Shown here in pieces: positions 4,991 to 5,022 of a stretch of DNA of 64,000 nt (positions are counted from its first letter, which is position 1; each line of letters starts with the position of its first letter). The stretch is from Escherichia coli (GTDB lineage Bacteria > Pseudomonadota > Gammaproteobacteria > Enterobacterales > Enterobacteriaceae). The position numbers were made by a program, and so were the translations under genes. The stretch is taken from the NCBI RefSeq assembly GCF_046105845.1, contig NZ_CP151004.1. One strand, written 5' to 3'. The notes beneath the pieces are model-generated. The model had not been told where the DNA came from. It did no database searches and was given only the letters and a program-made list of their open reading frames with translations.

Positions 4991-5022
4991 ATTTCAGGTT
5001 ACAGTTACTTGTAACCTGAAAT
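4991..5022 (+). terminator. intra-operon stem-loop after major pilin gene (candidate attenuator / mRNA stabiliser)
   Basis: Perfect 12-bp inverted repeat atttcaggttac (4991-5002) / gtaacctgaaat (5011-5022) with 8-nt loop, 14 bp after the pilin stop codon. Confidence 0.5.

What the first reader, a model, noticed from the sequence alone, without database searches (positions are those of the whole stretch)
4991..5022. Perfect 12-bp inverted repeat immediately after the major pilin gene
atttcaggttac / gtaacctgaaat with an 8-nt loop lies 14 bp after the pilin stop and about 75 bp before the chaperone start. Such stem-loops in fimbrial operons commonly act as partial terminators or RNase-resistant 3' ends that give a stoichiometric excess of major subunit transcript over assembly-machinery genes.
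Basis: seen in the sequence. Interest (0 to 1): 0.4.

Follow-up and report, generated by a model that had tools for sequence, protein, structure and literature searches.

The report
Conserved RNA hairpin after aufA pilin gene
A perfect inverted repeat just after the main pilus-subunit gene of the E. coli Auf fimbrial operon is a real RNA hairpin kept by selection. It most likely protects the subunit's message from degradation, which is an ordinary feature of such operons and not a classical terminator.

Summary
It has perfect 15-nt arms (4989-5003 / 5010-5024) and folds as RNA into 16 pairs with a UUAC loop (about -19 kcal/mol). It is the only perfect inverted repeat of 12 bp or more in the 64-kb window.

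The operon is auf (aufABCDEFG), lying between glgP and glpD. The window carries a less common allele.

The hairpin is single-copy and found only in auf carriers. It recurs 11-13 nt after the aufA stop in four diverged lineages: two E. coli alleles, Citrobacter freundii and an unidentified lineage. The loop and the rest of the spacer diverge.

All stem changes keep pairing. There are two A-U to G-C double changes, and every one-sided change gives G·U on the + strand (C·A on the - strand). This points to a sense-strand RNA structure under selection.

It lacks the features of a canonical intrinsic terminator. It is 28% G+C, has no U-tract, and its base has a U-run 5' and an A-run 3', the reverse of a terminator. 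All seven auf genes are co-induced in published RNA-seq, so transcription reads through.

The best reading is a 3' exonuclease barrier that stabilises aufA mRNA, as at malE or papA. Four K-12 fimbrial operons show comparable hairpins.

Verdict: a new member of a known kind, of low to moderate interest.

The parts
4273..4977 (+). aufA, the major Auf fimbrial subunit (234 aa); stop codon TAA at 4975-4977.
   Evidence: ORF. Pfam PF00419 with E = 2e-21. A 97%-identical protein is named 'Auf fimbriae major fimbrial subunit AufA' (P0007). The published CFT073 aufA knock-out primer matches window 4241-4275 and L002 6969-7003.
4989..5024 (+). Conserved RNA hairpin of 16 pairs (15 Watson-Crick plus a closing G·U) with a UUAC loop. 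The core 13 pairs are 4991-5003 / 5010-5022.
   Evidence: for the repeat and its fold.
5025..5097 (+). A/U-rich untranslated spacer, proposed (by inference) as the entry site for an endonuclease. It holds a second hairpin specific to the allele-1 group (about 5031-5058) and a conserved block before the aufB start, TTCATCNACAAGGATGC (5078-5094), that contains the Shine-Dalgarno AAGGA.
   Evidence: Sequence. Folds. Alignments. No sigma-70-like promoter is called in this stretch.
5098..5850 (+). aufB, the periplasmic chaperone.
   Evidence: ORF. PapD_N and PapD_C domains. RefSeq annotation of the 99.6%-identical locus L001.
5892..11464 (+). aufC (usher), aufD and aufE (minor subunits), aufF (second chaperone) and aufG (adhesin-like subunit). 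These are the downstream cistrons, needed in smaller amounts than AufA.
   Evidence: Gene order matches aufABCDEFG in PMC5956150.

Best explanation
The inverted repeat encodes a stable hairpin in the sense (+ strand) auf mRNA, anchored 11-13 nt behind the aufA stop codon. RNA polymerase mostly reads through it into aufB-G. Once the polycistronic RNA is cut in the A/U-rich, untranslated spacer downstream (probably by RNase E), 3'-to-5' exonucleases (PNPase, RNase II) degrade back to the hairpin and stall there. This leaves a longer-lived aufA message that ends at about 5024-5030. The cell then makes far more major subunit than chaperone, usher and minor subunits. This is selective RNA processing and stabilisation, as described for malE-malF, papA and cfaB.

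Shown here: the hairpin exists, it is under purifying selection as a + strand RNA helix, it travels with the operon, it is anchored to the end of aufA, and it lacks terminator features.

Inferred: the cleavage, the exonuclease block and the resulting excess of aufA mRNA.
For: (1) Structure. Perfect 15-nt arms, dG about -19 kcal/mol, z = -5.3. The hairpin is kept in a 291-nt context fold.

(2) Selection. Third-codon-position identity of aufA between the window allele and the CFT073/ATCC 25922-type allele is only 50.6%, and the spacer is 65% identical with indels. Yet 25 of the 26 core stem bases are identical.

(3) Covariation. C. freundii has two A-U to G-C double changes. Across seven distinct sequences the 13 core pairs are paired in 89 of 89 cells. 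RNAalifold predicts the same helix independently.

(4) Strand. Every one-sided stem change is a transition that gives G·U on the + strand. These are allele 2; L018, L019 and L043; L009; and two in C. freundii. On the - strand they would be C·A, and pairing falls to 83 of 89 cells. The + strand folds are more stable in 3 of the 4 diverged lineages.

(5) Anchoring. The hairpin lies 11-13 nt after the aufA stop in all lineages. Its distance to the aufB start ranges from 27 to 75 nt.

(6) Not a terminator. There is no U-tract and the terminator scan does not call it.

(7) Read-through is needed and observed. No promoter-like site lies between the hairpin and aufB. All aufA-G genes are co-induced by TosR (PMC5956150).

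(8) Precedent. Protective 3' hairpins at malE, papA and cfaAB are described in PMC5927463 and PMC4423207. Strong hairpins also follow fimA, sfmA, elfA and yraH in K-12.
Against: No transcript data (3' ends, half-lives, coverage) could be examined, so the functional step is inferred. The published RNA-seq gives fold changes, not absolute aufA:aufB levels. The covariation rests on only four independent lineages, and in the shuffle control 18 of 500 shuffles reach the observed score. The near-invariance of the stem sequence (CAGGUU / AACCUG never change) goes beyond what a purely structural barrier requires and could reflect recognition by a protein. In one lineage (L009) an added outer helix and a UUCUAUUUUUC tail look terminator-like.
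Confidence: 0.55

Rival explanations
1. Partial (attenuating) transcription terminator. A fraction of polymerases stop at the hairpin, so fewer transcripts reach aufB-G.
For: It is a stable hairpin directly behind the most abundantly needed cistron. The downstream sequence is A/U-rich. In lineage L009/L012 the hairpin sits inside an outer helix followed by UUCUAUUUUUC. The yraH hairpin in K-12 has a U-rich tail. The papA 3' structure is described as a terminator (PMC5927463).
Against: There is no U-tract in the window allele, allele 2 or C. freundii (3 U in the first 8 nt). The base of the stem has a U-run 5' and an A-run 3', the reverse of the bidirectional terminators in the same window at 50911 and 63742. 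The stem is 28% G+C. All auf genes are co-induced.
Confidence: 0.2
2. Recognition element for an RNA-binding protein or a double-strand-specific nuclease (RNase III site, or a ProQ-type 3'-end binder). Such a factor would set the fate of the aufA or aufB message.
For: The stem sequence is conserved beyond what structure alone needs. The pairs C-G, G-C, G-C and two U-A are invariant in all lineages. The stem is long, perfect dsRNA of 15-16 bp.
Against: The stem is shorter than the roughly two helical turns typical of RNase III substrates (established knowledge). With only four lineages, invariant pairs are weak evidence. No motif of a known binder was identified.
Confidence: 0.08
3. A FimR2-like small RNA derived from the 3' UTR. 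The hairpin and its flanks are cut out of the auf transcript and act in trans.
For: K-12 carries the annotated 35-nt sRNA FimR2 10 nt after the fimA stop, the same position as this hairpin. FimR2 is processed by RNase E and depends on its stem-loop for stability (PMC9723502).
Against: The conserved bases are all inside the helix. The loop (UUAC, UUAU, AAAG and others) and the single-stranded flanks are not conserved, so there is no candidate seed. No GGA (CsrA) motif is present in the 36-nt hairpin (sequence), and nothing resembling FimR2 was seen by eye (not aligned). Rfam gives no hit.
Confidence: 0.07
4. DNA-level palindrome: an operator for a dimeric regulator, or a dispersed repeat (REP/BIME or MITE end).
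For: It is a perfect palindrome with strongly conserved arm sequence.
Against: There is one copy per genome and only in auf carriers: 760 genomes, each with one site that matches on both strands. All one-sided changes break DNA symmetry but keep + strand RNA pairing. The compensatory A-U to G-C changes fit RNA. No promoter is nearby to regulate.
Confidence: 0.03

Closest known systems
Intercistronic 3' stabiliser hairpins (selective RNA processing and stabilisation): malE-malF, papA 3' end, cfaA-cfaB
   Same: A stable stem-loop sits directly behind the cistron needed in excess, inside a polycistronic transcript, and is followed by an unstructured A/U-rich segment. It is conserved in homologs. 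(PMC5927463; PMC4423207; anatomy.)
   Different: The malE-malF element is a G+C-rich REP repeat present in many copies. This hairpin is A/U-rich (28% G+C), single-copy and specific to auf. The papA 3' structure is described as a terminator, and this one lacks a U-tract. No decay or 3'-end data exist for auf.
Hairpins after the major subunit genes of other E. coli chaperone-usher operons (fimA-fimI, sfmA-sfmC, elfA-elfD, yraH-yraI)
   Same: All four K-12 intergenic regions examined hold a strong hairpin downstream of the major subunit gene, with dG from -12 to -23 kcal/mol. In yraH and fimA it starts 6-9 nt after the stop.
   Different: No sequence similarity is evident. Those stems are richer in G+C (40-68%), and yraH has a U-rich tail. 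The auf hairpin has the longest perfect stem of the set.
FimR2 (sRNA derived from the fimA 3' UTR)
   Same: It occupies the same place, about 10 nt after the stop codon of the major pilin gene. It consists of a hairpin needed for stability and is released by RNase E (PMC9723502).
   Different: FimR2 has a single-stranded region and two GGA motifs that bind CsrA. The auf hairpin has no GGA, no conserved single-stranded part and no evident sequence similarity.
Rho-independent (intrinsic) terminators
   Same: A stable hairpin located at the end of a gene.
   Different: It has no 3' U-tract and low G+C, and the polarity of the A/U runs at the stem base is reversed. Genuine terminators in the same window (41874-41899 on the - strand, 50911, 63742) show the canonical form.

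Membership tests
Intrinsic (Rho-independent) terminator | U-rich tract immediately 3' of the stem | tested here: not met
   The tail is AUAUUACA, with 3 U in 8. The terminator scan does not list the site. The tract is also absent in allele 2 and C. freundii. Only L009/L012 has a U5 run, and that follows an extra outer helix.
Intrinsic (Rho-independent) terminator | G+C-rich stem | tested here: not met
   The hairpin is 28% G+C, with 4 G-C pairs out of 16. Perfect hairpins elsewhere in the window are 46-65% G+C.
Intrinsic (Rho-independent) terminator | Transcripts end at the site | not testable with these tools
   This needs in vitro transcription or Term-seq. Indirectly, all aufA-G genes are co-induced, so any termination is at most partial (PMC5956150).
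Intercistronic 3' stabiliser hairpin (SRPS type) | Stable stem-loop in the sense RNA directly 3' of the favoured cistron | tested here: met
   dG is about -19 kcal/mol. The hairpin lies 11-13 nt after the aufA stop in four lineages.
Intercistronic 3' stabiliser hairpin (SRPS type) | Structure conserved in homologs, with pairing-preserving substitutions | tested here: met
   Core pairs are 89/89 paired. There are two compensatory pairs, and all one-sided changes give G·U on the + strand. The sample is small (four lineages).
Intercistronic 3' stabiliser hairpin (SRPS type) | Lies inside a polycistronic transcript that reads through it | tested here: inconclusive
   No promoter-like site lies between the hairpin and aufB, and all auf genes are co-induced in the literature. 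No transcript map was available.
Intercistronic 3' stabiliser hairpin (SRPS type) | Upstream segment more abundant or longer-lived than downstream, with 3' ends at the hairpin | not testable with these tools
   This needs a northern blot, a rifampicin decay series or 3'-end mapping.
FimR2-like sRNA derived from a 3' UTR | Located just after the stop codon of the major pilin gene | tested here: met
   FimR2 is annotated 10 nt after the fimA stop. The auf hairpin lies 11 nt after the aufA stop.
FimR2-like sRNA derived from a 3' UTR | Conserved single-stranded or loop sequence (GGA motifs, seed) for CsrA binding or base-pairing | tested here: not met
   There is no GGA in 4989-5024. The loop and flanks vary between lineages.
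FimR2-like sRNA derived from a 3' UTR | A discrete small RNA accumulates | not testable with these tools
   This needs a small-RNA northern blot or sRNA-seq.
REP/BIME or other dispersed palindromic repeat | Many copies per genome | tested here: not met
   A 42-nt query finds one site per genome (matched on both strands), and only in 760 auf-carrying genomes out of 5426. The window holds no second copy.
Auf fimbrial operon (aufABCDEFG) | Seven-gene order of major subunit, chaperone, usher, two minor subunits, second chaperone and adhesin, located next to glgP | tested here: met
   The AufA name is on P0007. The CFT073 aufA deletion primer matches exactly.

The most novel reading that the evidence does not exclude
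The hairpin is the stable core of a FimR2-like small RNA. It would be released from the aufA 3' UTR by RNase E and would couple Auf expression to other adhesin, motility or biofilm circuits. Alternatively, it could be a specific protein-recognition element, which would explain why the stem sequence, and not just the pairing, is almost invariant.
Probability: 0.08. Interest if true: 0.6.

Novelty: new member of a known kind. Interest (0 to 1): 0.27.

Why it matters
Pilus assembly needs hundreds to thousands of major subunits for each usher and tip complex. Hairpins after the pilin gene are one of the classic ways an operon achieves that ratio.

Showing that Auf, a poorly understood fimbria associated with uropathogenic E. 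coli, carries such an element adds a concrete, testable post-transcriptional control point to an operon whose regulation is almost unknown. The element is conserved across alleles as diverged as 50% at synonymous sites, and in Citrobacter.

It also gives a clean natural example of a non-terminator, A/U-rich protective hairpin with covariation support. It does not change how such operons are understood.

Tried and rejected
- **Terminator reading.** The consensus scan does not call the site, and comparison with real terminators in the window shows reversed A/U-run polarity.
- **Dispersed repeat.** Rejected: the element is single-copy and found only in auf carriers.
- **Known RNA family.** No Rfam hit reaches threshold. 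Only chance-level matches to eukaryotic miRNA and snoRNA models appear.
- **Minus-strand RNA or DNA operator.** Disfavoured by the strand asymmetry of the wobble changes.
- **Wider homolog set.** The metagenome DNA-pattern scan gave 28 loci, but only one new hairpin variant.
- **Literature.** The original Auf paper (Buckles 2004, PMC427398) is not held, so I cannot say whether it mentions the stem-loop. The TosR RNA-seq paper gives only fold changes. No paper in the library links auf to an sRNA.
- **Stop-codon-spanning small hairpin (4961-4988).** Not conserved in allele 2, so not pursued.

Full report
**Observation.** The repeat is longer than reported. The repeat finder gives perfect 15-nt arms at 4989-5003 and 5010-5024 with 6 nt between them. 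As RNA the two inner bases add a G·U pair, giving 16 pairs and a UUAC tetraloop. The hairpin alone has dG of about -18.5 to -19.3 kcal/mol. A 71-nt context folds at z = -5.3 against dinucleotide shuffles. The hairpin survives in a 291-nt context fold. It is the only perfect hairpin-type inverted repeat with a stem of 12 bp or more in the whole 64-kb window. Markov simulations give 0.02 per window, and none of 14 bp or more in 100 runs. The stop codon of the upstream gene is 4975-4977 and the start of the downstream gene is 5098, so the stated distances are right.

**Context.** The window is E. coli chromosome. glgP (1343-3790) is followed by a seven-gene chaperone-usher cluster:
- major subunit, 4273-4977
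- chaperone, 5098-5850
- usher, 5892-8483
- two minor subunits
- a second chaperone
- a 383-aa adhesin-like subunit ending at 11464

glpD follows on the other strand. This is the auf operon. A 97%-identical protein is named AufA. The published CFT073 aufA deletion primer (supplement of PMC5956150) matches exactly just upstream of the ATG, both in ATCC 25922 and in the window (4241-4275).

The window carries a minority allele, found at 95% identity or more in 228 of 5426 complete E. coli genomes. About 540 further genomes carry the CFT073/ATCC 25922-type allele, which is only about 75% identical.

**Comparative evidence.** I collected the aufA-aufB spacer from several sources:
- the second E. 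coli allele (L002, L004, L013)
- sub-variants of the first allele (L010/L011, L018, L019, L043)
- Citrobacter freundii (L005-L008), where the operon sits at a different chromosomal site next to an ABC transporter
- an unidentified lineage from sequencing-run assemblies (L009, L012)

Between the two E. coli alleles, aufA third codon positions are only 50.6% identical, and the spacer is 65% identical with indels. Even so, 25 of the 26 core stem bases are identical, while the loop differs (GUUACU against AAAAGU). Taking 50.6% as a neutral expectation, 25 of 26 has a binomial probability of about 5e-7 (my calculation).

C. freundii shows two double substitutions, A-U to G-C, at two different pairs. 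Every one-sided substitution in the helix is a transition that yields G·U on the + strand:
- the allele 2 right arm (GAGAU)
- L018, L019 and L043 (GUAGCC)
- L009 (GUUGC)
- two further cases in C. freundii

In ~210 genomes of the window's allele, the single polymorphism seen in the 42-nt element is one of these wobble-preserving changes.

Counted formally on seven distinct sequences, the 13 core pairs are paired in 89 of 89 cells on the + strand and 83 of 89 on the - strand. RNAalifold predicts the same helix without being told. Sliding the partner by 1-3 columns drops pairing to 21-50%. The + strand folds are more stable than the - strand folds in three of the four diverged lineages.

The hairpin lies 11-13 nt after the aufA stop in all lineages. 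Its distance to the aufB start ranges from 27 to 75 nt. So it belongs to the 3' end of aufA.

The element is single-copy and occurs only in auf carriers. It matches no Rfam family.

I conclude, with high confidence, that it is a sense-strand RNA structure under purifying selection. One caveat applies. There are only four independent lineages, and the shuffle control is modest (18 of 500 shuffles reach the observed score).

**Mechanism.** The element does not look like an intrinsic terminator.
- The eight bases after the stem contain three U, and the consensus scan does not list the site.
- It is 28% G+C.
- The stem base runs UAAUUUC...GAAAUUA, a U-run 5' and an A-run 3'. This is the reverse of the canonical AAAAA...UUUUU seen at genuine terminators in the same window (41874 on the - strand, 50911, 63742).
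- No sigma-70-like promoter is found between the hairpin and aufB.
- In CFT073 all seven auf genes rise together when TosR is overproduced (log2 fold change 2.6-6.6; PMC5956150). Polymerase must therefore read through.

In the established model for malE-malF, papA and cfaAB, the polycistronic RNA is cut in an unstructured A/U-rich segment. The downstream part is then degraded, and 3' exonucleases stall at the hairpin, leaving a long-lived message for the abundant subunit (PMC5927463; PMC4423207). The 73-nt A/U-rich untranslated spacer after the hairpin fits that model. The cleavage and stabilisation steps are inferred, not shown. I put this reading at about 0.55.

Partial termination stays possible (about 0.2). 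One lineage (L009/L012) wraps the hairpin in an outer helix followed by UUCUAUUUUUC.

**How ordinary is it?** I examined the spacer after the major subunit gene in four K-12 chaperone-usher operons. All four hold a strong hairpin:

| Operon spacer | Hairpin | dG (kcal/mol) | Notes |
|---|---|---|---|
| yraH-yraI | perfect 14 bp | -23 | 6 nt after the stop, U-rich tail |
| elfA-elfD | 9 bp, G+C-rich | -17.9 | |
| sfmA-sfmC | 23 pairs, imperfect | -21.6 | |
| fimA-fimI | 14 pairs | -12.1 | |

So the auf hairpin is a typical feature of this operon class. It is distinguished only by its long perfect stem, its A/U-richness and its lack of a U-tail.

**A lead worth recording.** The fimA-fimI spacer of K-12 carries the annotated 35-nt sRNA FimR2, starting 10 nt after the fimA stop. 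FimR2 is cut out by RNase E, needs its stem-loop for stability, binds CsrA through GGA motifs and regulates motility and biofilm (PMC9723502). The auf hairpin occupies the same position.

Against a FimR2-like role:
- the conserved bases are all inside the helix
- the loop and flanks vary
- there is no GGA
- nothing resembling FimR2 is evident by eye

I give this reading, or a specific protein-recognition role suggested by the near-invariant stem sequence, less than 0.1 each.

**Novelty and verdict.** I could not read the original Auf paper, so I cannot exclude that it mentions the stem-loop. Nothing in the searchable library describes it. In kind it is a new member of a well-known class. Interest is low to moderate.

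Noticed in passing
window 4273-11464, against L002 7001-14166: Two deeply diverged auf alleles occupy the same glgP-glpD site in E. coli. aufA is 77.6% identical in DNA and only 50.6% at third codon positions. The 35 nt before the aufA ATG, the hairpin stem and the aufB ribosome-binding block are nearly identical between them. The window's allele is in about 228 of 5426 complete genomes and the CFT073-type allele in about 540.
   Followed up: partly
window 5031-5058: A second A/U-rich hairpin (CAUGUUUAUUUG-UAA-UAAAUAGACAUG) lies directly after the first. It is present only in the allele-1 group. One A-U to G-C compensatory change is seen in L018/L019, and an A·C intermediate in L016/L028. It is deleted in allele 2 and absent in C. 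freundii.
   Followed up: partly
window 5078-5094: The block TTCATCNACAAGGATGC just before the aufB start codon (it contains the Shine-Dalgarno sequence) is conserved in both E. coli alleles and in C. freundii, although the rest of the spacer is unalignable. It is longer than a ribosome-binding site needs to be.
   Followed up: no
L042 1175-1209 (K-12 fimA-fimI spacer): RefSeq annotates the sRNA FimR2 10 nt after the fimA stop, positionally analogous to the auf hairpin. Strong hairpins also follow sfmA, elfA and yraH in K-12.
   Followed up: yes
window 11843-11885 (+), within 11800-11900: This is the only Rfam hit in the window above gathering score: ES036 (CssrF) sRNA, 46.8 bits. It overlaps REP-like palindromes (gccggatgcg..., gtaggcctgataagcg...gcatcaggc) between aufG and glpD, so it may simply be a REP/BIME element.
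   Followed up: no
window 11665-11949 (+); L001 16334-16548: A 94-aa ORF lies between aufG and glpD. A nearby stretch in the 99.6%-identical RefSeq genome is annotated as a frameshifted, incomplete hypothetical gene. The CFT073-type allele instead has two intact hypothetical genes after aufG (L002 14340-15558).
   Followed up: no
window 3791-4272: A 480-bp very A/T-rich region lies upstream of aufA. It has imperfect palindromes at 3964-4008 and 4178-4216, and promoter-like sites at 4084-4112 and 4200-4227. The published putative TosR motif lies about 360 nt upstream of aufA in CFT073.
   Followed up: no
L005 1-3000 (Citrobacter freundii CP057863.1): The C. freundii auf-like operon is not next to glgP. 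It follows ABC-transporter genes, so the operon, with its hairpin, has moved between chromosomal sites. No auf-like gene was found in any of the 100,044 species-representative genomes.
   Followed up: partly
L009 1195-1306, L012 110-220: In an unidentified lineage (aufA 71% identical in protein) the conserved hairpin is enclosed by a 13-pair outer helix followed by UUCUAUUUUUC. That gives a terminator-like compound structure not seen in the other lineages.
   Followed up: partly
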